Shown here: positions 24,347 to 32,440 of the stretch, piece after piece | How positions within the stretch are numbered: the first letter of the stretch is position 1 | Layout: each line of letters begins with the position of its first letter | IMG/VR virus record: IMGVR_UViG_2588253749_000008 | Strand: one strand, 5' to 3' | DNA: 37,557 bases | Origin: a virus | Taxonomy: Duplodnaviria; Heunggongvirae; Uroviricota; Caudoviricetes | Made by a program: the position numbers and the translations under genes | The notes under the pieces: model-generated | Told to the model about the DNA's origin: nothing | Database searches by the model: none | The model's input: the letters and a program-made list of their open reading frames with translations, nothing else

Positions 24347-26098
24347 ATGATTCAGGACGCTTTTGTGCGCCAGCGTGCGCGGCAACTTTACTGGCAGGGT
24401 TATCCGCCCGCAGAAATATCACGTCTGATGGGAATAAACCCGAACACGATTTATGCGTGGAAAAAACGCGACCAGTGGGATGAAACGCCACCCGTGCAGC
24501 GTGTCACGCAGTCCATCGATGCGCGCCTCATCCAGCTCACTGAAAAACAGAATAAAACAGGTGGTGACTTCAAGGAAATAGACCTGCTGACCCGGCAGCT
24601 TAAAAAACTGCATGATGGCCAGCCGGATGCGACGGCCACAGGAAAGAAAGGCCGGGCGAAAAAGCTTAAAAATCATTTCACGCCGGAACAGATTGCCGCA
24701 CTGCGGGAAAAAATCATCAGCAGGCTGGAGTGGCATCAGCGGGGCTGGTTTGACTCCCTGACCCTTTGCAGGGAAGCCGGGATACGTAACAGGATGATCC
24801 TGAAATCCCGACAGATTGGGGCGACCTGGTATTTTGCACAGGAAGCACTGCTGATGGCGCTGCGTGACGATGTGGTGCAACCTTATCAGCGTAACCAGAT
24901 TTTTTTGTCTGCGTCGCGTCGTCAGGCGTTCCAGTTTAAAAGCATTATTCAGAAGGCCGCGGCTGAAGTTGATGTGGAGCTGAAAGGGGGCGATAAAATC
25001 ATCCTCTCCAACGGCGCAGAGCTGCATTTTCTCGGCACTTCTGCTGCGTCGGCACAGTCCTATACGGGCAATTTTTATTTTGATGAATTCTTCTGGGTCA
25101 GTCGCTTTGCTGAACTGCGCAAGGTGGCTGGCGCTATGGCAACCCTCAGCGGACTGCGGCGCACCTACTTCTCCACGCCATCCACCGAAACGCACGAGGC
25201 ATACGCCTACTGGAACGGCGACCGCTGGAACGAGAAAAAGGCCACGCATAAACGCCAGCGTTTTTCTGTGGACTGGAAAACGCTGCATAACGGGCTTATC
25301 TGCCCTGACCGGACGTGGCGGCAAATTGTCACGCTGGAAGATGTGGTTAATCACGGCTGGAAACACACCGATATTGATGAAATTCGTGATGAAAACACCG
25401 AAGACGAGTTCCTCAATCTCTATATGTGTGAGTTTGTCCGCGAAGGGGAATCGGCATTTAACCTGAATATCCTGATTGGCTGTGGTGTTGACGGATACGA
25501 CGACTGGAAAGACTGGAAACCTTTTGCTCCCCGCCCGATGGGGAATCGCCCGGTATGGATTGGGTATGACGCAAACGGCAGCAGTGGCAACGGCGACAGC
25601 GGCGCGGTGTCCGTGGTGGTTCCTCCGGCTGTTCCTGGTGGCCGTTTTCGAACGGTGGAGACGCGACGCGTTCAGGGGCTGGAGTTTGAAGAACAGGCCA
25701 GAGTCATTGAAGAGTTCACGTGTCGCTACAACGTGGAACACATCGGCATTGATGTGACGGGCGGGAACGGGGAGGCTGTTTATCAGATAGTGAAACGGTT
25801 TTTCCCTGCCGCTATTCCGTACACCTTCACGCTGTCATCAAAACGGTCGCTGGTACTGAAAATGCTGCAAATAATGCGTGCCGGGCGGTGGGAATACGAT
25901 CGCGCCGAACGCGAGCTGGTCGCGGCCTTTAACGCCGTGCGTAAGGTGAAAACACCTGGCGGCTTTATCACTTACGAAACGGACCGCGCGAGGGGGATCA
26001 GCCACGGCGACCTTGCGTGGGCAACCATGCTTGCTGTCATTAACGAACCAATTGGCGGCGAAGGAGAAAACGAGCGTTTCACGGTTATGGAGTTCTGA
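24347..26098 (+). CDS. P: Terminase ATPase (large) subunit gpP
   Basis: 583 aa, divergent from O as in P2. Confidence 0.9.
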   Translation: MIQDAFVRQRARQLYWQGYPPAEISRLMGINPNTIYAWKKRDQWDETPPVQRVTQSIDARLIQLTEKQNKTGGDFKEIDLLTRQLKKLHDGQPDATATGKKGRAKKLKNHFTPEQIAALREKIISRLEWHQRGWFDSLTLCREAGIRNRMILKSRQIGATWYFAQEALLMALRDDVVQPYQRNQIFLSASRRQAFQFKSIIQKAAAEVDVELKGGDKIILSNGAELHFLGTSAASAQSYTGNFYFDEFFWVSRFAELRKVAGAMATLSGLRRTYFSTPSTETHEAYAYWNGDRWNEKKATHKRQRFSVDWKTLHNGLICPDRTWRQIVTLEDVVNHGWKHTDIDEIRDENTEDEFLNLYMCEFVREGESAFNLNILIGCGVDGYDDWKDWKPFAPRPMGNRPVWIGYDANGSSGNGDSGAVSVVVPPAVPGGRFRTVETRRVQGLEFEEQARVIEEFTCRYNVEHIGIDVTGGNGEAVYQIVKRFFPAAIPYTFTLSSKRSLVLKMLQIMRAGRWEYDRAERELVAAFNAVRKVKTPGGFITYETDRARGISHGDLAWATMLAVINEPIGGEGENERFTVMEF

Positions 26099-27144
26099 TG
26101 AGCAGAAAAAATAAAAAAGTGCGCATGAGTTCACGCATTGATCTCGCTGATGCGCTCAGGAAAGAATCATCGCTCAGTGCATTCACATTTGATGGTCCTT
26201 ATCGCCTGACCGGGCATGACCTGCTGGACAATATGTACTGTGCTGATAACGGGCGGTGGTATGAAACCCCGGTGGACTGGTACGGTCTGGCAAGAGCCGC
26301 CCGGCAAACGTCCTGGCATCAGTCTGCGCTTTACTTTAAGCGCAATGTATTGCTCGGTTGCTACATCCCGCACCCGCTGCTTTCCCGGCAGGATTTCTCG
26401 GCGCTGGCGCTGGACTGGTTTGTGTTCGGTAACGCATTCCTTGAGCTTCGGAGCAATATGCTCGGCGAACCACTTAAATTACGGCACGCACTGGCGAAAT
26501 ACATGCGACGCGGAAGCGATCTTGAATCATGGTGGTATGTGCAGGATGGCAAGGACGCGTTTCAGTTTCGCCCTGGCAAAGTGTGCCACCTGATGAATCC
26601 GGACATTAACCAGGAAATTTACGGCATGCCGGAATATCTTGGCGCATTACTCTCGGCCAGCCTGTCTCATTCGGCGGACATGTTCAGAAAACTGTATTAC
26701 GACAATGGATCCCACGCCGGGTGCATCATCTACATCGGTGCAGCGCAGGTAAACCGCGAAAGCATGGACTCCCTGAAAGAAACGTTACAGGGTGCGCGTG
26801 GTGGTGGTGCGTTTAAAAACGTGCTCATCCATGCGCCCAACGGGGGCAAAGAGGGGGTGCAAATTTTGCCGTTCCAGCAGATCACCGCAAAGGATGAGTT
26901 CATGAATGTTAAGGCGGCATCCCGTGATGATGTGCTGGCTGCGCACCGCGTTCCGCCGCAACTGATGGGGGCGATGCCGGGCGAAAAAAGTGCGTTTGGT
27001 GATGTGGAGAAGGCCGCGCGGGTTTACGCAATTAACGAGCTGATGCCTGTCATGGAGGCCATGAAGCACATCAATGACTGGCTTGGCGAAGAGGTGATCC
27101 GCTTTAACCCTTACGCACTGTTAGACACCCAGCCCACATCCTGA
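26098..27144 (+). CDS. Q: Portal protein gpQ
   Basis: 348 aa immediately after P; last late gene before the presumptive cos region. Confidence 0.9.
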   Translation: MSRKNKKVRMSSRIDLADALRKESSLSAFTFDGPYRLTGHDLLDNMYCADNGRWYETPVDWYGLARAARQTSWHQSALYFKRNVLLGCYIPHPLLSRQDFSALALDWFVFGNAFLELRSNMLGEPLKLRHALAKYMRRGSDLESWWYVQDGKDAFQFRPGKVCHLMNPDINQEIYGMPEYLGALLSASLSHSADMFRKLYYDNGSHAGCIIYIGAAQVNRESMDSLKETLQGARGGGAFKNVLIHAPNGGKEGVQILPFQQITAKDEFMNVKAASRDDVLAAHRVPPQLMGAMPGEKSAFGDVEKAARVYAINELMPVMEAMKHINDWLGEEVIRFNPYALLDTQPTS

Positions 27145-27171
27145 CGCGCTTCGCTTGTCTGCTGCTTCGCC

Positions 27172-27197
27172 GGGGCATAAAAAATTTATGCCCCGAC
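27172..27197 (+). terminator. Terminator after Q (GGGGCATAAAAAATTTATGCCCC)
   Basis: Perfect hairpin read directly from sequence. Confidence 0.5.
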
Positions 27198-27590
27198 TCT
27201 CCAGCTCCTGTATCAGTCAGATAATTTCACGACGCTTTCCTGCTGATTGCCATTATCGACAGTCAGACTCTTACGCAATCCCACCGCGTTGACTGCATGT
27301 TCTCGCCGTCTCAGTGCGATTTTGACGGCCTTACCTTTCACCCCATCAAATCAAAAGCCCTCACGTCTTTTTCACGCTCAGCGTGAGAAATACAGCCATT
27401 CTGTTGTATCTCTGCGACATCGTTCAGGGAATGCTATTTACCCCCTGAAACGCGGGCTGTTCCCCCGTCACCTGCGCGCAGAAAAAACGCGTTTTTTTGT
27501 GCACGTACGGATCCTTGACGGATCCAGCCACCACGCGGGCCGGAAGTACAAAAAGTCGTTCAAAAAAATTGTGCAAACTTGTGCACTATC

Positions 27591-27621
27591 GTGCAAACAA
27601 AAAAAGCGCCTTATCGGCGCT
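27591..27621 (-). terminator. Terminator for the 27674-27901 gene (minus strand)
   Basis: AAGCGCCGATAAGGCGCTT followed by TTTTTTTG on the minus strand. Confidence 0.45.
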
Positions 27622-27673
27622 TCAAAAGTATCAATTGTTGCTGTGTATTAATCGCCAACCACGAACATATGCT

Positions 27674-27901
27674 TCATAGGCATCTCTGTGCCTTACAGTT
27701 TCCAGCCTGGCTAAACGGAATGTTAGCTAAAACTAAATCATTCTGAGCCATAGCGCGTCCTTCAAGCGCATCTTTTATGCCTAGCTCAAAAGCACAGGCA
27801 GCGCATTTGTGCCGACCTTCTTGTCCTTGATATTCAGGGAGAGACAGAAATGTTGGATTATAACGATGAGGGTTCTTGCAAATACCTGTTTTAGCCCGCA
27901 C
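27674..27901 (-). CDS. Small Cys-containing hypothetical protein, 75 aa, GTG start
   Basis: GAGG RBS 8 nt upstream; five Cys including CxxC; own terminator; sits in the variable region between cos/Q and A. Confidence 0.35.
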   Translation of the reverse strand: MRAKTGICKNPHRYNPTFLSLPEYQGQEGRHKCAACAFELGIKDALEGRAMAQNDLVLANIPFSQAGNCKAQRCL

Positions 27902-27924
27902 TTTATTTACCTCATAGGAAAAAT

Positions 27925-28011
27925 ATGCGTGCCTTTACAGAGGTGCGTGTAAGCAATAAAATATACGACGCACATTTTGATTTACTTCGGAAGGCACGCA
28001 TATCAGGTTAA
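27925..28011 (+). CDS. Possible 28-codon small ORF / leader (MRAFTEVRVSNKIYDAHFDLLRKARISG)
   Basis: AGGAAA RBS 5 nt upstream; start codon lies inside an 11-bp inverted repeat (ATGCGTGCCTT ... AAGGCACGCAT); followed by a strong terminator. Could instead be a non-coding RNA. Confidence 0.2.
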   Translation: MRAFTEVRVSNKIYDAHFDLLRKARISG

Positions 28012-28030
28012 GTGAGTCCGACCGAGTTTT

Positions 28031-28064
28031 ACGCCCCAATAGTTGCTGCTATTGGGGCGTTTTG
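28031..28064 (+). terminator. Strong rho-independent terminator (ACGCCCCAATAG ttgctg CTATTGGGGCGT TTTT)
   Basis: Perfect 12-bp stem plus T-run. Confidence 0.65.
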
Positions 28065-28265
28065 CATGGACAATGCCGCGCAATTATCTTGTCGCTCACA
28101 ATGCGAACGATCTTACAAAAAGGCACATTACTGTCAAGATAATTGATCGTTTTAATCGATAGATAATAGACAATCTATTTGTTTAACAGATCGATTATTG
28201 AAGTAAGTGTGCCAAGTGGAATGATACTGTCTCTATAAACGTGAGCATTTTTCGCGCAGATGCTT

Positions 28266-28577
28266 TTACTCAGGAAATAACGCCCGGATATTCCCAGCCA
28301 TCTGGCTGGTTATCTTAGCCACTGGTGCAGACTGTGCTTCAAACTTTTTTGAGCTGATTTGTGTCACAGGTAACATCTCATCATCAGCCCATGCGGCCAG
28401 TCGGTAAGCCTCTGCCGGATTCGTCTTCAGAAGTGCCAGCCCGGCCAGAAAAGCCACGCGTTGGCCGCTTTTGCGGGCTTCTGGTGTAAGGCTGTCCAGC
28501 CAGGCGCATGCTTCTCCTTCGTTCTTGACGGCAGCTGGCTTCAGATAGAAACTTATCCGTCTGGTTGGTGTTGTCAT
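28266..28577 (-). CDS. parR: ParR-like centromere-binding adaptor
   Basis: Start reassigned to MTTPTRR; RISFYLKPAAVKNEGEACAWLDSLTPEARKSGQRVAFLAGLALL parallels R1 ParR as recalled; AGGAG RBS inside the parM 3' end. Confidence 0.65.
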   Translation of the reverse strand: MTTPTRRISFYLKPAAVKNEGEACAWLDSLTPEARKSGQRVAFLAGLALLKTNPAEAYRLAAWADDEMLPVTQISSKKFEAQSAPVAKITSQMAGNIRALFPE

Positions 28578-28581
28578 TGGT

Positions 28582-29541
28582 TTACTCCTTGTCCATTGCG
28601 TACAGCCCATTAACCAGAGCAAACTGTGGCACCCCGTCCGCGATGAAAGTCGCATTAACTCCGCAGGCTTCGCGGATAGCGGGTGCCACAATCTCCGCCC
28701 CGCCACCGACAACCATCACCCGCCCGTAACCCGAAAAACCCGCCAGCGCGCGGATCACGCGTTGTTTCAGTGTTTCTTCCTTTTCACGAATAACCGCCAT
28801 CAGGCTGTCGTAATGCGCGTCATTGTGGATGTGCTGGCGCAGCCAGGCTTCATCATGGCGATGTTCGATAATGGTATTGGCGATGTGGTGACTGGTACGC
28901 ATACCGTTAGTGGCCATCACCGACAGTACGGCATCGGCCATCAGGGAAACGCCTACGTGTGGATCGCAAAACACCTGGCTGATACCTGCCAGTTGTCCCT
29001 GAACCTTTGCCACATCCAGCGTGGTTCCGCCTAAATCCACAATCAGCAGGGATTCAAACGGACTCATGTCAGCCAGTGCTTTAAAGCCAGCCGGAATGGA
29101 TTCAGGCATAACCCGTACGTTACGGATAGTGAATGCTTCGCCGTTCTGGTACTCCACCGGGCGCATGACGTTCGCTTTTTTGCGGTTGATGTTGGCCATG
29201 TCCGGCTGTGCGTTTGTGTCGAAATATTCGCTCAGTGGCAGGGTGACAACCACATCCACTTCCTGTGGTGTGATGCCTGATTTGACCAGCGCGTGATGAA
29301 TGGCAATGACATTCACATCGCTGTACTGGTATTGCGTGTCGGTCGTCTGGACAAAGCGATCGCTGACCGGATCAAAACCATAGCGCACGCCATCAAGCAT
29401 GTAGTTCGCGGGCTGCGTGCCACCGAACGGCGCAGACCATTCCGACTTGAAGCTGTTCGGGCTGATGGCGTTGCGGCGTTCGCCGTTCTCAGTCCATGCC
29501 AGCTTGATGTTGGTGGAGCCGTCATCGATACAAATTTTCAT
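28582..29541 (-). CDS. parM: ParM/StbA-like actin-family segregation ATPase
   Basis: 319 aa; near-identical blocks to plasmid R1 ParM as recalled (IDDGSTNIKL.W, ISPNSFK, YSDVNV.A.HHAL, MPESIPAG, L.IDLGGTTLD). Confidence 0.85.
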   Translation of the reverse strand: MKICIDDGSTNIKLAWTENGERRNAISPNSFKSEWSAPFGGTQPANYMLDGVRYGFDPVSDRFVQTTDTQYQYSDVNVIAIHHALVKSGITPQEVDVVVTLPLSEYFDTNAQPDMANINRKKANVMRPVEYQNGEAFTIRNVRVMPESIPAGFKALADMSPFESLLIVDLGGTTLDVAKVQGQLAGISQVFCDPHVGVSLMADAVLSVMATNGMRTSHHIANTIIEHRHDEAWLRQHIHNDAHYDSLMAVIREKEETLKQRVIRALAGFSGYGRVMVVGGGAEIVAPAIREACGVNATFIADGVPQFALVNGLYAMDKE

Positions 29542-29573
29542 GTCGCTTTTCCTTATGTTGATTAATTAATCGC

Positions 29574-29608
29574 TTACGGGATTCTGAAATCCCGTTTTTG
29601 CCTGTTTT
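29574..29608. repeat. 35-bp direct repeat, copy 1 (TTACGGGATTCTGAAATCCCG...), candidate parC/operator
   Basis: Contains internal palindrome GGGATT-N4-AATCCC; lies between the A stop and parM start. Confidence 0.5.
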
Positions 29609-29617
29609 ATGCGCGCT

Positions 29618-32440
29618 TCATATATCGCGGCGCGTTTTTTGCTCATTTACGGGATTTGTGAATCCCGTTTCTGTCTGTTTTTTGTTTCCACTGGTCAGGC
29701 CACCCCGCAGCAGGTCTGCTTTGCGGCGGGCGCGTTCAGTGGTTTCACTGATTCTCTGTGCGTGCTCTGCGTCGCGGATGGCGCGCAGCATGTCAGAAAG
29801 CACGGTAACGGGTGTTTTCATGGTGTTCTGGTCCTGCTGAAGTGTGGATGCCAGGCGTGCGGCGGCTTCGGGGTCTGATGCCCCCAGCTGTTCCAGATAG
29901 CTGGCGACCGGGTTATGGCGGATCTCCGTGCTGCTTACGCCGTGGTTACGGCTCAGGCGCTGCCAGAGCTGCGTGATCCGGCTGTCCGGTCGGGTATCCG
30001 GTTTGCGTACAATTTCAAATCCCTGCGGTGCAATGATGCTGCCGTCGACGTACAGACTGCCGCCCCGTAACAGGTGCTGCATCTGCTGTTCACCGATATG
30101 CAGGCCGAGAGATTCAGCAGACTCCCGCCATTCTTTAGCGAGTAACTCGTGGTTATCAGGCAAAGGCCGTGGCTGTTTGCGGCTCTGTGTCCAGTTCTGC
30201 ATTTCATCACTGCTGTTTTTTGCCTGTTTGTCACGCAGCGAACGCATCAGCGCCCGGCGTTCGTGCCGTTTCAGTGAGCGCATCCATTCATTCACGTCAA
30301 CGCCGTCAGGAAGCTGCGGCCACGGTGCTGGCCGTTCTTCCGGCTGTTCTGTCCCGTTGTTGTCCGTTTCCTGTACACGGGGACAGTTATTGCCACGAGT
30401 CCAAGGGGCGGCAGGGCCGCCCTGAAGGTCAAAACCATTTTCGCGGGCGCTGTCTTCCGCTTCCGGTTTACGTCTTACCAGCTTCCAGTTATCCGGATGT
30501 GTGCACACACGGGAAGACTCCCCGATGAGCGGTGACCAGATCCCGTAAATCTGTACGCTCTGTTCGCCGTAATCGTTCAGCTCATCTGCGAGGTCGTAGG
30601 CGGTGCGAATCAGGTAGTCTTTGCGTGGAACAAGTACGCCGCCCTGTTTTTCAATGTAGGAGGCAAAACACCCGGCATCAGCGGCAGCGAGCACTGCATC
30701 CATTGCGTCATCCTTCAGTCGTTGCGGGCCTTCCGGGTTGCGTGCCATCTGGCTGGCAAGGCGGCGCAGTTCACGCCACACCTGACGGGAGGGGATGCCA
30801 AAGAACTGGAACTGGCGGACCCGGTGAAGGCGCGCCCAGCCGATGGCGCGCTCCACGCTCTCGGCCATTGATTTTCCGGTTTCGTGGTCAACGCGTGGCT
30901 TGCCCGTTTTCGGGTCGATACCATCCACGGCGCGGCTGTCCAGGTTCTTTCCGATGTAGGTGGCGATGTAGCTGGTTGGCGTGCCTTTTGAGCCGTCGAC
31001 GTACTCCGCCTTAAAACGCGGAGTTATGTCATCGCCCAGCTCGTGGCGGTCTTCCTGAATGGCAATATCGCAGACGTGGGACACGATGGTTTCAATCTCG
31101 TCCGGATGTGCAAAGACCATCATATGCCAGTGCACAGTGCCGTCATGGTGAGGCTCCACCGTGCGGATGCCATACCAGCGAAGACCGTCGCGGTTCAGTT
31201 TTTTGCGGACCGCCGCAAAAAACGTGTTAACCAGGTAATCGCTGGAGTCGCGCATGGTGGCCCCGTTCCATTTGGGATTCGGATGACCGTTCTCTGTTGT
31301 GGCGTGGTATTTTGACGGGCAGGTGACAGTCAGAAACACCGCTCTGTCGCCACGGGCTTCGGCCAGAAGTTCCAGTCCCTTCATGGTGGCCATCATTTCT
31401 GCCTTACGGTGAACCGGGTTACTTACTCCCGCGTAATACACCGTCTCGAGATCAATCGTGAACCCGTCTTCATTTTCCAGCATGAAACTTTTCAGGAAAT
31501 CGCGTGTTTTCTCGCGCTGTGCGCGAAACTCGCTTAACGCGTCCTGGCTCAGATAGGGTGATGTTTTTCTGGAAACCAGACAGGCGGCGCGGAGTTGTTC
31601 TTCTCTCCACTCGCAACGTAACAGCCACAGTTTGCGTTTCCACCATTCCGCACAGGTCAGGCGAAGGATTGCGCCCGGCAGCAGCTCCGTGTCCGGTTCG
31701 TTCCTCCGGTCTTTGTCTGTTGTCAGTGCGTCATAATGTGGAGGCATGGCGTGCAGGTGTAACGCCATGCGGGCCAGCATCTGATACGCCTTCAGCGTTA
31801 CATCCATGGTCAGTTCGCCATCAGTAGCGCCAAAGCCATCGCAGAGTTTTTCGAAGGTGCTGCTGAACATCGCCGCCGTCATGGTGGCCAGCGTCTGTAT
31901 CTGGTGTTTGTTGAGCTGCGGCAGGTAAAGCAAATCGTCCAGGCGTTCGCGTCCGGCAAGGGAGCGATAACCCGGTGTCAGCCAGCGGTGATCGGTGCGG
32001 TCCAGACGTTCGAATATTTTGCGCAGGGTTCCGCGCGCGTAGCGTTCCGCCTGCCAGCTCTTTTTGCCTTTCTGACGATCGGCTTCCTGCTTCTTGCGCA
32101 GGAAGGAGAGGTGGCGAATAAGCGGATCGCGCAGATAGGACGGCAGCAGGCGCAGCGAGGCCATGGCTTCATCCACCGCGCCGCGTGCCTGTTTTCTGGC
32201 GTCTCCTGCCAGTGTGATGGTTTTGTCCTGTTTTTCCTGTGCGTCCAGGCTTTTATTAATCAGGTTGCCCAGCGGCGTGGCGGAGAACGCCGCATCAGCC
32301 ATTTCCTGGCGGCGCTCGTTCTCTACCCGGTAGGCATCCAGCCAGGAGGAAAGCGCGGATTCAGGAGCGGAGATCCCCGTTCCTTCACGCCCCACTGCGT
32401 GGCGCGGTTGTTGCCAGTCCCTGATGTACTCTGCCGTCAT
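29618..32440 (-). CDS. A: Replication initiation endonuclease gpA (rolling-circle HUH nickase)
   Basis: 940-aa ORF containing the HxH motif (VHWHMMVF) and conserved gpA blocks; true start may be downstream of 32440. Confidence 0.85.
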   Translation of the reverse strand: MTAEYIRDWQQPRHAVGREGTGISAPESALSSWLDAYRVENERRQEMADAAFSATPLGNLINKSLDAQEKQDKTITLAGDARKQARGAVDEAMASLRLLPSYLRDPLIRHLSFLRKKQEADRQKGKKSWQAERYARGTLRKIFERLDRTDHRWLTPGYRSLAGRERLDDLLYLPQLNKHQIQTLATMTAAMFSSTFEKLCDGFGATDGELTMDVTLKAYQMLARMALHLHAMPPHYDALTTDKDRRNEPDTELLPGAILRLTCAEWWKRKLWLLRCEWREEQLRAACLVSRKTSPYLSQDALSEFRAQREKTRDFLKSFMLENEDGFTIDLETVYYAGVSNPVHRKAEMMATMKGLELLAEARGDRAVFLTVTCPSKYHATTENGHPNPKWNGATMRDSSDYLVNTFFAAVRKKLNRDGLRWYGIRTVEPHHDGTVHWHMMVFAHPDEIETIVSHVCDIAIQEDRHELGDDITPRFKAEYVDGSKGTPTSYIATYIGKNLDSRAVDGIDPKTGKPRVDHETGKSMAESVERAIGWARLHRVRQFQFFGIPSRQVWRELRRLASQMARNPEGPQRLKDDAMDAVLAAADAGCFASYIEKQGGVLVPRKDYLIRTAYDLADELNDYGEQSVQIYGIWSPLIGESSRVCTHPDNWKLVRRKPEAEDSARENGFDLQGGPAAPWTRGNNCPRVQETDNNGTEQPEERPAPWPQLPDGVDVNEWMRSLKRHERRALMRSLRDKQAKNSSDEMQNWTQSRKQPRPLPDNHELLAKEWRESAESLGLHIGEQQMQHLLRGGSLYVDGSIIAPQGFEIVRKPDTRPDSRITQLWQRLSRNHGVSSTEIRHNPVASYLEQLGASDPEAAARLASTLQQDQNTMKTPVTVLSDMLRAIRDAEHAQRISETTERARRKADLLRGGLTSGNKKQTETGFTNPVNEQKTRRDI
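29647..29681. repeat. 35-bp direct repeat, copy 2 (29 of 35 identical), inside the 3' end of gene A
   Basis: Same palindrome-containing unit; overlaps the last ~20 codons of A. Confidence 0.5.

What the first reader, a model, noticed from the sequence alone, without database searches (positions are those of the whole stretch)
27590..28265. Divergent small-gene pair with structured RNA in the variable region next to cos
A 75-aa Cys-containing ORF (GTG start, RBS, own terminator) is divergent from a 28-codon ORF or small RNA. The latter has its start codon buried in an 11-bp inverted repeat and ends in a very strong terminator at 28031-28064. An A/T-rich tract follows with ATCGAT and AATAGA/TCTATT palindromes (28140-28200). 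The layout resembles small toxin-antitoxin or regulatory-RNA modules, in a locus known to vary between P2-like phages.
Basis: seen in the sequence. Interest (0 to 1): 0.45.

Follow-up and report, generated by a model that had tools for sequence, protein, structure and literature searches.

The report
Antisense-RNA-controlled small gene cassette in prophage
This 0.67-kb stretch is one self-contained accessory cassette in the cargo hotspot of a P2-family prophage: a small uncharacterised Cys/His protein gene (broken here by a frameshift) whose long leader is overlapped by a conserved, undescribed ~95-nt antisense RNA. It is not a pair of divergent genes.

Summary
They form one cassette, 27596/27615-28265, that fills the variable slot between the cos-side backbone and the parR stop codon of a P88-like (Xuanwuvirus) prophage. 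The minus strand carries a sigma-70-like promoter (28137-28110), a ~200-nt structured leader, an 89-aa protein gene (phrog_3941, function unknown, more than 1,100 homologs) and a terminator (27623-27603). A unique +1 T in the window truncates the protein to 75 aa and removes invariant residues. On the plus strand, inside the leader, CTTTACA-N17-TAAAAT (27933-27962) and the strong terminator (28031-28064) define a predicted ~96-nt cis-antisense RNA. Relatives of 47-64% protein identity (P2-like, P22-like and lambdoid phages, plasmids) keep this promoter at the same offset, although synonymous sites are saturated. They also keep a covarying hairpin whose G·U pairs favour the antisense strand. 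The 28-codon ORF is not conserved and lies upstream of the predicted RNA start. The AT-rich palindrome is cassette promoter-upstream DNA, not parC. The protein's function is unknown. Tight antisense control and defence-island neighbours suggest a type-I-TA-like or defence-related module. No transcript data were available.

The parts
27603..27623 (-). Intrinsic terminator of the small-protein gene (GAAGCGCCGATAAGGCGCTTT followed by TTTTGTTT). It also marks the left edge of the swappable cassette.
   Evidence: 8-bp stem, 5 GC pairs, T-run. Homology to P88, Chuche and Shae_phiSM stops at 27595-27614.
27631..27901 (-). Gene for the 89-aa Cys/His small basic protein (phrog_3941 family), frameshifted in this window. 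The ORF as it reads now is 27674-27901 (75 aa).
   Evidence: (phrog_3941, E = 6e-49, full length). pN 0.10-0.39 against pS 0.68-1.05 between lineages.
27699..27701 (.). T-run (AAA on the coding strand) holding the +1 insertion. It replaces the last 22 residues, including invariant R70, H71 and G81, with 8 unrelated ones.
   Evidence: insertion present only in the window; invariant columns.
27910..27913 (-). Shine-Dalgarno GAGG, 8 nt upstream of the GTG start at 27901.
   Evidence: Sequence. Equivalent GAGG/AGG in relatives, mostly enclosed in a local hairpin with the start codon.
27902..28103 (-). Predicted ~200-nt structured 5' leader of the mRNA.
   Evidence: Promoter scan. Fold of 27880-28105 (-): -73.7 kcal/mol, z = -4.3. 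Leaders of about 170 nt in most relatives.
27923..28003 (.). Long leader hairpin: 13-bp perfect arms 27923-27935 and 27991-28003 enclosing 55 nt. The antisense promoter lies in its interior.
   Evidence: L013 has a different-sequence hairpin in the same place (GAGGTGTTCATCT / AGATGACACCTC).
27933..27962 (+). Promoter of the antisense RNA: -35 (C)TTTACA 27934-27939, 17-nt spacer, -10 TAAAAT 27957-27962. The predicted start is near 27969.
   Evidence: unique in the window. Same hexamer, spacer and offset (30-35 nt from the start codon) in 16 lineages plus L105 and L108. These are essentially the only invariant columns of alignments A3 and A5.
27969..28064 (+). Predicted ~96-nt cis-antisense small RNA, complementary to about +40 to +135 of the mRNA leader.
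   Evidence: Fold -35.6 kcal/mol, z = -4.05. Comparative architecture. No Rfam family.
28031..28064 (+). Rho-independent terminator of the antisense RNA (ACGCCCCAATAG-TTGCTG-CTATTGGGGCGT followed by TTTT).
   Evidence: I7. Covariation in 5 of 9 pairs. 21 G·U pairs on this strand against 5 on the other; this strand is more stable in 10 of 15 lineages. Best hit of the leave-one-out model R1, E = 0.01.
28110..28137 (-). Sigma-70-like promoter of the protein gene: TTGACA (28137-28132), 16-nt spacer, TAAGAT (28115-28110). GATC overlaps the -10 at 28109-28112.
   Evidence: 10 of 12 matches. A matching element at a fixed distance in relatives.
28139..28198 (.). AT-rich imperfect palindrome upstream of the -35, with GATC at 28145 and 28189. 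It is cassette DNA, possibly an operator or UP-like region.
   Evidence: About 75% conserved in the divergent cassette of L013/L014. Absent from P88, Chuche and Shae_phiSM, which share parMR. GATC lies 10-11 nt upstream of the -35 in 15 of 16 lineages.
28081..28145 (.). 11-bp perfect inverted repeat CAATTATCTTG / CAAGATAATTG (28081-28091 and 28135-28145) bracketing the core promoter. Its significance is unknown and it is not conserved in L013.
   Evidence: (I10).

Best explanation
The segment is a single autonomous accessory (moron) cassette inserted in the cos-proximal cargo/defence hotspot of a P88-like P2-family prophage, between the cos-side backbone and the stop codon of parR. On the minus strand, its own sigma-70 promoter (28137-28110) makes an mRNA with a ~200-nt structured leader. 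The mRNA encodes an 89-aa basic, non-membrane Cys/His protein of a large uncharacterised family and ends at its own terminator. Inside the leader, on the plus strand, a conserved promoter (27934-27962) faces the sense promoter and makes a ~96-nt RNA that stops at the strong terminator 28031-28064. This RNA is perfectly complementary to the middle of the leader. Inferred mechanism: the antisense RNA keeps the gene silent in three ways. It forms a duplex with the leader that is open to RNase III-type cleavage. Its promoter converges on the sense promoter about 130 bp away, which allows transcriptional interference. By occupying the upstream arm of the leader hairpin, it favours the local hairpin that buries the Shine-Dalgarno site and start codon. 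Conserved GATC sites beside the -35 and in the -10 of the sense promoter suggest an added Dam-methylation input, as in IS10. The protein is probably a nucleic-acid-binding effector or regulator that is harmful or needs strict timing, giving type-I-TA-like or defence-related behaviour. In this window the protein is truncated by a +1 frameshift while the RNA elements are intact. What is shown: cassette boundaries, gene family, frameshift, conservation of both promoters and of the hairpin. What is inferred: that the RNA is made, what it does, and what the protein does.
For: Cassette: homology to P88, Chuche and Shae_phiSM ends at 27595-27614 and resumes exactly at 28266, and those phages carry other cargo there. 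The cassette occurs in 165 of 5,426 complete E. coli genomes. The gene is listed as 'hypothetical' in the P2 hotspot tables of Rousset et al. 2022. Gene: phrog_3941 full-length match; 172 representatives and more than 1,144 clusters; invariant C8, H12, R30, G41, Q65, R70, G81 and near-invariant H31, C33, C36, H71; strong purifying selection; confident AF2 model, pLDDT 91.7. Antisense RNA: the scan tool finds TTTACA-17-TAnnnT on the antisense strand in the window, L013 and L006. My own scan finds it 30-35 nt upstream of the start codon in all 16 enterobacterial lineages and in L105 and L108. Synonymous sites are saturated, so this is constraint rather than recent ancestry. CTTTACA and the T, A, T of the -10 are nearly the only invariant columns. 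The hairpin covaries and its G·U pairs favour the antisense strand, 21 against 5. A model built without the window allele finds the terminator and then the promoter block as its two best hits in the window. The same module sits in three unrelated phage slots and on plasmids, so its RNA signals belong to the gene, not to its neighbours. Repression model: forcing the sRNA target region to stay unpaired lowers predicted start-codon accessibility in 12 of 16 lineages. Defence link: distant homologs lie in operons with a D12 MTase, a type II REase and PDC-S19, next to AbiEii and TIR, and others are fused to NOV_C, DndB or WYL.
Confidence: 0.68

Rival explanations
1. A true type I toxin-antitoxin or abortive-infection module. 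The 89-aa protein would be a non-membrane toxin (nuclease-like or ribosome/nucleic-acid-binding) held off by the labile antisense RNA. When an infecting phage shuts off host transcription, the RNA decays and the toxin is made. This is a more specific version of the main explanation.
For: Cis-antisense RNA over the leader, a buried translation initiation region, and a location in a defence hotspot. Defence-island neighbours of distant homologs. The only inactivated copy among about 60 examined is this window's. Precedents for non-membrane type I toxins are SymE and RalR (own knowledge; RalR: PMC4041452, listed).
Against: The protein has no transmembrane segment (GRAVY -0.57). There is no homology to any type I toxin or Rfam antitoxin. 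It is intact in nearly all copies, including on small plasmids, with no sign of toxicity-driven decay. Distant homologs exist without any antisense RNA. No toxicity data exist.
Confidence: 0.3
2. A Dam-methylation-gated DNA-binding regulator or establishment factor. The protein would be a small Zn-binding DNA reader, related to modules that accompany Dam-class R-M systems. It would be expressed only when the cassette DNA is un- or hemimethylated (on entry or replication), with the antisense RNA damping the basal level. It would then be a controller or anti-defence factor rather than a toxin.
For: GATC lies exactly 10-11 nt upstream of the -35 in 15 of 16 lineages and overlaps the -10 in 9 of 16. 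The only three GATC sites in the cassette cluster at the promoter. Distant homologs sit in operons with a D12 (Dam-class) MTase and REase. Fusions to DndB, WYL and NOV_C indicate DNA-related roles. The protein is basic (pI 9.2) with a C-H-C-C pattern. IS10 pIN/pOUT is a precedent for antisense plus Dam control (own knowledge).
Against: No DNA-binding fold was recognised. Three GATC sites in 84 bp is not by itself significant in a 37-kb window. The Bacteroidota contexts may represent a single ICE lineage. There is no evidence that methylation affects this promoter.
Confidence: 0.15
3. One reading: two divergent small genes, a 75-aa protein and a 28-aa peptide (or a ~140-nt RNA starting at or before 27925), each with its own signals.
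For: Both ORFs exist and each has an SD-like sequence (AGGA 5 nt before the ATG at 27925).
Against: The 28-codon ORF is not conserved: the L013 cassette would encode an unrelated 31-codon peptide there, without an SD (by-eye translation). The conserved promoter lies downstream of its ATG. There are no family hits. The 75-aa ORF is a frameshift product.
Confidence: 0.04
4. No antisense RNA is made. The hairpins would be structural elements of the mRNA leader (attenuator or stability elements) or insulating terminators against read-through from the late operon or parMR, and TGTAAAG would be an mRNA motif.
For: The long hairpin is followed by a U-run on the sense strand (ATATTTTTCC in the window, CATTTTATT in L013). 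In Providencia-type leaders the second hairpin is as stable or more stable on the sense strand. The promoters are only consensus matches.
Against: The -10 keeps T, A, T at exactly 17 nt from TTTACA in every lineage, which an mRNA motif does not explain. G·U asymmetry favours the antisense strand. U-rich tails follow the hairpin on the antisense strand. The elements travel with the gene into unrelated genomic contexts.
Confidence: 0.12
5. The AT-rich palindromic tract (28139-28198) is the parC centromere of the adjacent ParMR partition system.
For: It lies directly downstream of parR and is AT-rich and repeat-rich.
Against: P88, Chuche and Shae_phiSM share parM/parR at about 90% identity but lack this tract; homology starts exactly at the parR stop codon. 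The tract instead travels with the small-protein cassette (L013/L014).
Confidence: 0.03

Closest known systems
Type I toxin-antitoxin loci with a cis-antisense RNA over the 5' leader (hok/sok, ldr/rdl, zorO/orzO; non-membrane toxins SymE/SymR and RalR/RalA)
   Same: A small protein gene with a long structured leader, a buried translation initiation region, and a short cis-encoded antisense RNA with a single-stranded 5' tail plus terminator stem-loop. Carried on prophages and plasmids.
   Different: The protein is 89 aa, hydrophilic and basic, with conserved Cys/His, and is unrelated to any known type I toxin. The RNA matches no Rfam antitoxin. Toxicity is untested. The RNA overlaps only the middle of the leader, not the SD or start codon.
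IS10 RNA-IN / RNA-OUT with Dam control of pIN (own knowledge)
   Same: Face-to-face sense and antisense promoters, a stable stem-loop antisense RNA, and GATC in the -10 of the sense promoter.
   Different: In IS10 the overlap covers the start codon and is only about 35 nt, and the gene is a transposase. Here the overlap is about 96 nt inside a ~200-nt leader, and the Dam effect is only inferred from conserved GATC positions.
P22 sar (ant) and sas (sieB) antisense RNAs (own knowledge; Rfam RF00262)
   Same: Small antisense RNAs that control accessory or exclusion genes of temperate enterobacterial phages. The terminator stem-loop resembles that of sar (22-23.5 bits).
   Different: The scores are far below the sar gathering score of 43 bits, and only the hairpin aligns. 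The target gene and locus differ.
Cargo of the P2 gpA-gpQ (tin/old) hotspot (Rousset et al. 2022, PMC9122126)
   Same: Same slot, with swappable self-contained cassettes. This gene appears in their Table S5A as 'hypothetical' next to StbA and Plasmid_stab_B.
   Different: It is not one of the annotated or tested defence systems, and PADLOC v2 gives no hit.
Ribosome modulation factor (Pfam PF04957)
   Same: The A-Y-x-x-G-Y-x-x-G helix motif. 9 of 39 family members give weak RMF hits, best E = 0.007.
   Different: All hits are below the Pfam threshold. hhalign probability against E. coli RMF is 5.9%. Length and Cys/His pattern differ. This is a lead only.

Membership tests
Type I toxin-antitoxin system | An antisense RNA base-pairs with the toxin mRNA (cis-encoded overlap). 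| tested here: inconclusive
   A conserved antisense promoter and terminator inside the leader are predicted in the window and in 17 relatives. There are no transcript data.
Type I toxin-antitoxin system | A small hydrophobic, membrane-active toxin, usually under 60 aa. | tested here: not met
   89 aa, GRAVY -0.57, maximum 19-residue Kyte-Doolittle window 0.58.
Type I toxin-antitoxin system | Overexpression of the protein is toxic and the RNA neutralises it. | not testable with these tools
   Requires expression experiments.
Type I toxin-antitoxin system | Homology to a described toxin or antitoxin family. | tested here: not met
   No Pfam or NCBIfam hit for the protein. No Rfam family for the RNA.
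Rfam RF00262 sar RNA | Score at or above the gathering threshold (43 bits) over the whole model. | tested here: not met
   22.0 bits in the window and 23.5 bits in L013, covering only model positions 34-63.
P2-family cos-proximal (gpA-gpQ) cargo/defence hotspot cassette | Lies between the replication gene A and portal gene Q, with different cargo in related phages. | tested here: met
   Portal at 26098-27144 and gpA at 29618-32440. Alternative cargo in P88, Chuche and Shae_phiSM. Listed in Rousset Table S5A.
Known anti-phage defence system (PADLOC-DB v2) | Match to a defence-protein HMM. | tested here: not met
   No hit at E up to 1.
phrog_3941 / the 85-90-aa C-x3-H ... RHKCxxC ... SQAGxxRH family | Full-length profile match with the invariant residues present. 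| tested here: met
   The intact allele matches with E = 6e-49 over residues 4-89. The window copy keeps C8, H12, R30, H31, C33, C36, S64 and Q65 but loses R70, H71 and G81 through the frameshift.
ParMRC centromere parC (for the AT-rich palindrome) | Conserved together with parM/parR and made of iterated ParR-binding repeats. | tested here: not met
   Absent from phages that share parMR. It is a single imperfect palindrome, not iterons.
Ribosome modulation factor (PF04957) | Pfam gathering score or a convincing profile-profile match. | tested here: not met
   Best E = 0.0074 in 9 of 39 members, all below threshold. hhalign probability 5.9%.

The most novel reading that the evidence does not exclude
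The cassette would be a new kind of mobile two-layer switch. A previously undescribed Cys/His nucleic-acid-binding protein (no known fold, more than 1,100 homologs, embedded in R-M/defence operons in Bacteroidota) would be gated both by a dedicated cis-antisense RNA and by the Dam-methylation state of its promoter. It would then be produced only when transcription collapses or when the DNA is un- or hemimethylated. It would act as a non-membrane type I toxin / abortive-infection effector, or as a methylation-state reader that controls defence.
Probability: 0.15. Interest if true: 0.8.

Novelty: new variant of a known kind. Interest (0 to 1): 0.58.

Why it matters
The cos-proximal hotspot of P2-like prophages is a proven reservoir of anti-phage systems, yet this gene has only been catalogued there as 'hypothetical'. 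The analysis shows that it comes with its own conserved antisense RNA and promoter logic. The whole unit moves between P2-like, P22-like and lambdoid phages and plasmids. This turns an anonymous ORF into a defined 0.6-kb module that can be tested directly. If the protein proves to be a toxin or defence effector, it would add a non-membrane class to the type I TA and abortive-infection repertoire, and it would give a function to a protein family with more than a thousand members and no known fold. For annotation, the copy in this window is a pseudogene with intact RNA elements, and the 28-codon ORF should not be called.

Tried and rejected
- Rfam scans of the window and of 11 related loci found no family for the RNA. 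The only match was a sub-threshold sar- or ctRNA-like terminator.
- Pfam, NCBIfam and PADLOC gave nothing for the protein. A PDB profile search gave nothing.
- The RMF-like lead was tested by hhalign and rejected as evidence.
- The first word-indexed protein search returned only 2 hits. The profile search was needed to see the family.
- The search for related loci with the broad alignment failed. The genome-contig scan gave only 4 loci.
- The 165 E. coli copies are too similar (at least 95% identical) to give covariation, so divergent lineages had to be collected.
- parC was rejected for the palindrome.
- No LexA box was seen when I read the promoter and leader by eye. This was not a formal scan.
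- The P2 cos 19-mer was not found within 3 mismatches, so cos is not mapped here.
- Literature searches for the accessions, for P88 and for prophage antisense sRNAs found no description of this module.
- A sense-strand upstream ORF ending at the SD was noted by eye but not pursued.
Full report
**Context.** The window is a P88-like (Xuanwuvirus, P2/186 family) prophage. The region 27150-28600 is 96-97% identical to Escherichia phages 520873 and 503458. The terminase and portal genes end at 27144 (+). On the minus strand lie parR (28266-28577, PF10784), parM (28582-29541) and the replication endonuclease gene A (29618-32440). Pairwise BLAST against P88, Chuche and Citrobacter phage Shae_phiSM shows that homology stops at 27595-27614 and resumes exactly at 28266, the parR stop codon. 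Those phages carry unrelated cargo in between. The finding's coordinates (27590-28265) are therefore those of one swappable cassette in the cos-proximal gpA-gpQ slot. Rousset et al. 2022 described this slot as a hotspot of defence and other accessory systems, and noted that about a quarter of P2-like phages carry a partition system there (PMC9122126). The cassette is present in 165 of 5,426 complete E. coli genomes, always on the chromosome.

**Checking the observation.** All the listed features are real.
- The GTG ORF is at 27674-27901 (-), with GAGG 8 nt upstream and a minus-strand terminator at 27623-27603.
- The 28-codon ORF is at 27925-28011 (+). Its ATG lies inside a perfect inverted repeat that is 13 bp long, not 11 (27923-27935 / 27991-28003).
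- A 12-bp perfect hairpin at 28031-28060 is followed by TTTT.
- An imperfect palindrome with 26-nt arms lies at 28139-28198.
- The plus-strand RNA 27915-28068 folds at -58.2 kcal/mol, z = -5.3.

**The protein gene.**
- The window has one extra T in the run 27699-27701 relative to every other good-quality copy examined: phage 520873, RefSeq genomes and about 35 IMG/VR contigs. The other copies encode 89 aa (stop codon at window 27631-27633); the poor-quality phage 503458 assembly reads differently because of its own homopolymer indels. The 75-aa ORF is therefore a frameshift product.
- The 89-aa protein matches phrog_3941 (unknown function) over its full length, E = 6e-49. It has no Pfam, NCBIfam or PADLOC family.
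- An exhaustive HMMER search finds 172 representatives at 50% clustering. A profile search finds more than 1,144 clusters, all unnamed.
- The alignment shows invariant C8, H12, R30, G41, Q65, R70 and G81, and near-invariant Q25, H31, C33, C36, A37, S64, H71 and A77. By eye the sequence is an internal duplication of a 'G-x-RH(K/R) + helix' unit.
- The frameshift removes R70, H71 and G81, so the window copy is probably non-functional, or the extra T is a sequencing error.
- Between lineages pN is 0.10-0.39 while pS is 0.68-1.05, that is, saturated. This is a real gene under purifying selection.
- The AF2 model is confident (pLDDT 91.7). It has no PDB or BFVD neighbour and no PDB sequence relative.
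- The protein is hydrophilic and basic: GRAVY -0.57, pI 9.2, no transmembrane segment.
- Weak RMF-like hits (9 of 39 members, best E = 0.007) were not confirmed by hhalign, probability 5.9%.

**Where the gene occurs.**
- Homologs of 52-64% identity sit downstream of the cI repressor in P22-like Salmonella phages, in the slot that rexAB occupies in lambda by my own knowledge (L007).
- Others lie between Q and the lysis genes, in opposite orientation, in Providencia and Arsenophonus lambdoid elements.
- Others are isolated genes on plasmids.
- A divergent allele occupies the same P2 slot in E. coli ECL27829 and TUM9812 (L013, L014). The gene is not annotated there and is followed by a second gene of unknown function.
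- Homologs of about 45% identity in metagenomic contigs lie in operons with a D12 (Dam-class) methyltransferase, a type II restriction enzyme and the candidate defence gene PDC-S19/DUF3644, next to AbiEii and TIR genes. A genome-contig scan found other distant homologs (37-42% identity) in Bacteroidales genomes.
- Other homologs form the N-terminal domain of proteins ending in NOV_C, DndB or WYL.
- Together these contexts point to a nucleic-acid-related, defence-associated role. They do not identify the function.

**The RNA.** The key result is comparative. I compared 16 enterobacterial lineages of the gene: the window type, L013 and L072, three Providencia types and ten P22-like or other types.
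- The strand antisense to the ORF always carries TTTACA, a 17-nt spacer and TAnnnT. The -35 starts 30-35 nt upstream of the start codon. The generic scan tool finds the same element independently in the window, L013 and L006.
- The element is also present in an Enterobacter plasmid copy (47% identity) and an Arsenophonus copy (54%). It is absent from the 40%-identity Serratia and E. marmotae plasmid copies and from Bacteroidales.
- In alignments of this region, CTTTACA and the T, A, T of the -10 are nearly the only invariant columns. Because synonymous sites are saturated between these lineages, this is functional constraint of the kind expected of a promoter.
- In the window the pattern CTTTACA-N17-TANNNT occurs once (27933-27962) against 0.04 expected.
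- Some 35-60 nt downstream of the predicted start, most lineages have a GC-rich hairpin with different but compensating stem sequences. Five of nine pairs show double changes.
- Folding each hairpin on both strands gives 21 G·U pairs on the antisense strand against 5 on the sense strand. The antisense strand is the more stable one in 10 of 15 lineages, including the window (-25.0 against -21.6 kcal/mol).
- On the antisense strand the hairpin is followed by a U-rich tail: TTTT in the window, often only TTTCCC elsewhere.
- The Providencia group keeps the hairpin but terminates at a second, stronger antisense terminator about 100 nt further on.
- A covariance model built without the window allele finds the plus-strand terminator (28034-28062, E = 0.01) and the plus-strand promoter block (27933-27970, E = 0.36) as its two best hits in the whole window.
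- The predicted RNA 27969-28064 folds at -35.6 kcal/mol, z = -4.05. No Rfam family matches it. Only the hairpin resembles the P22 sar terminator, at 22-23.5 bits against a threshold of 43.

**The sense transcript.** A promoter-like TTGACA-16-TAAGAT lies at 28137-28110. Relatives have an equivalent element with its -35 about 203-208 nt upstream of the start codon, compared with 236 nt in the window, whose leader hairpin is larger. The mRNA is therefore predicted to start near 28103, and the antisense RNA lies wholly inside its leader, at about +40 to +135. The two promoters face each other about 130 bp apart. The pair is an overlapping sense/antisense pair, not a divergent pair. The 28-codon plus-strand ORF begins upstream of the conserved antisense promoter. 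At the same place L013 would encode an unrelated 31-codon peptide, by my by-eye translation of the sequence. It has no family hits. It should not be regarded as a gene.

**Mechanism (inferred).** Most leaders contain a local hairpin that encloses the SD and start codon. Upstream of it is a larger hairpin whose upstream arm is complementary to the 5' part of the antisense RNA. When the sRNA target region is forced to stay unpaired, the predicted accessibility of the start codon falls in 12 of 16 lineages; in the window it falls from 0.32 to 0.05. I therefore propose that the antisense RNA represses the gene by three routes: duplex formation and cleavage, convergent-promoter interference, and stabilisation of the closed initiation region. 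None of this has been tested.

**GATC sites.** A GATC lies exactly 10-11 nt upstream of the sense -35 in 15 of 16 lineages. A second GATC overlaps the -10 (TAnGATC) in 9 of 16. In the window the only GATC sites of the cassette are 28109, 28145 and 28189, all at the promoter. This recalls the Dam-sensitive pIN promoter of IS10 with its RNA-OUT antisense RNA (own knowledge). It is notable given the Dam-class methyltransferase neighbours of distant homologs. It remains a lead.

**The AT-rich palindrome.** The tract 28139-28198 lies just upstream of the -35. It is conserved at about 75% identity in the divergent L013 and L014 cassettes. It is absent from phages that share parMR. It therefore belongs to the cassette, as a possible operator or UP-like region, and is not parC.

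**Comparison with known systems.** The module works like a type I toxin-antitoxin or IS10-type antisense switch. It also resembles the antisense control of the P22 accessory genes ant (sar) and sieB (sas). It cannot be filed as a member of any described family:
- the protein is not a membrane peptide and has no homology to known toxins;
- the RNA is not in Rfam;
- PADLOC does not know the gene;
- toxicity and defence activity are untested.

Rousset et al. list the gene only as 'hypothetical' in the arrangement 'StbA + Plasmid_stab_B + hypothetical'.

**Verdict.** The most likely reading is an autonomous, mobile accessory cassette consisting of a small uncharacterised Cys/His protein gene (a pseudogene in this window) under the control of a conserved, undescribed cis-antisense RNA. 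I put about 0.7 on this architecture and much less on any specific protein function. I rate it a new variant of a known kind and of moderate to high interest. It defines a compact, directly testable candidate in a proven defence hotspot and gives a handle on a large orphan protein family.

Noticed in passing
window 28266-29617: A ParM/ParR (type II) partition operon sits in an integrated P2-family prophage. The gap upstream of parM is only 76 bp and shows no obvious iterons by eye, so the centromere was not located.
   Followed up: partly
window 27565-27598: Three direct repeats of a TGTGCA(A/C) core (AAAATTGTGCAAAC, AAACTTGTGCAC, ATCGTGCAAAC) lie in the conserved cos-side backbone just left of the cassette. 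They may be a protein-binding site.
   Followed up: no
window 27699-27701: The +1 T that truncates the small protein was not seen in any other good-quality copy examined, and no complete E. coli genome matched all 676 bases. It is either a recent inactivating mutation or a homopolymer sequencing error.
   Followed up: yes
L013 2263-2550 (-) and L014 2263-2550 (-): The divergent allele of the cassette carries an extra downstream 95-aa gene (phrog_33929, unknown function, no Pfam hit). The small-protein homolog itself (L013 2617-2895, -) is not annotated in RefSeq.
   Followed up: partly
L109-L117 (metagenomic contigs): 84-aa homologs of about 45% identity lie in operons with a D12 (Dam-class) N6-adenine methyltransferase, a type II restriction enzyme (DUF6996/6997/7226) and PDC-S19/DUF3644, next to AbiEii and TIR_2 genes.
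   Followed up: partly
window 28109, 28145, 28189 and the equivalent positions in 15 other lineages: GATC sites are conserved at fixed offsets around the sense promoter: 10-11 nt upstream of the -35 in 15 of 16 lineages and overlapping the -10 in 9 of 16. P22-like and Providencia leaders also carry GATC at the antisense promoter and start.
   Followed up: partly
window 28081-28091 / 28135-28145: An 11-bp perfect inverted repeat (CAATTATCTTG / CAAGATAATTG) brackets the sense core promoter. One copy overlaps the -35 and the other lies just downstream of the predicted start. It is not conserved in L013.
   Followed up: no
L002 (Escherichia phage 503458, NC_049341): This RefSeq phage record has many single-base homopolymer deletions relative to its relatives. 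They fragment the terminase, portal, parM and replication genes in its annotation, which points to a low-quality assembly.
   Followed up: no
window 27171-27195: An 11-bp perfect hairpin (CGGGGCATAAA / TTTATGCCCCG) lies 27 nt after the portal stop codon. It is probably the end of the late P-Q transcript.
   Followed up: no
L065 275-473: A P22-like IMG/VR contig that carries a homolog of the gene also has significant Rfam matches to isrK and to C4 antisense RNA with its a1/b1 targets upstream of the locus. These are unrelated to the cassette.
   Followed up: no
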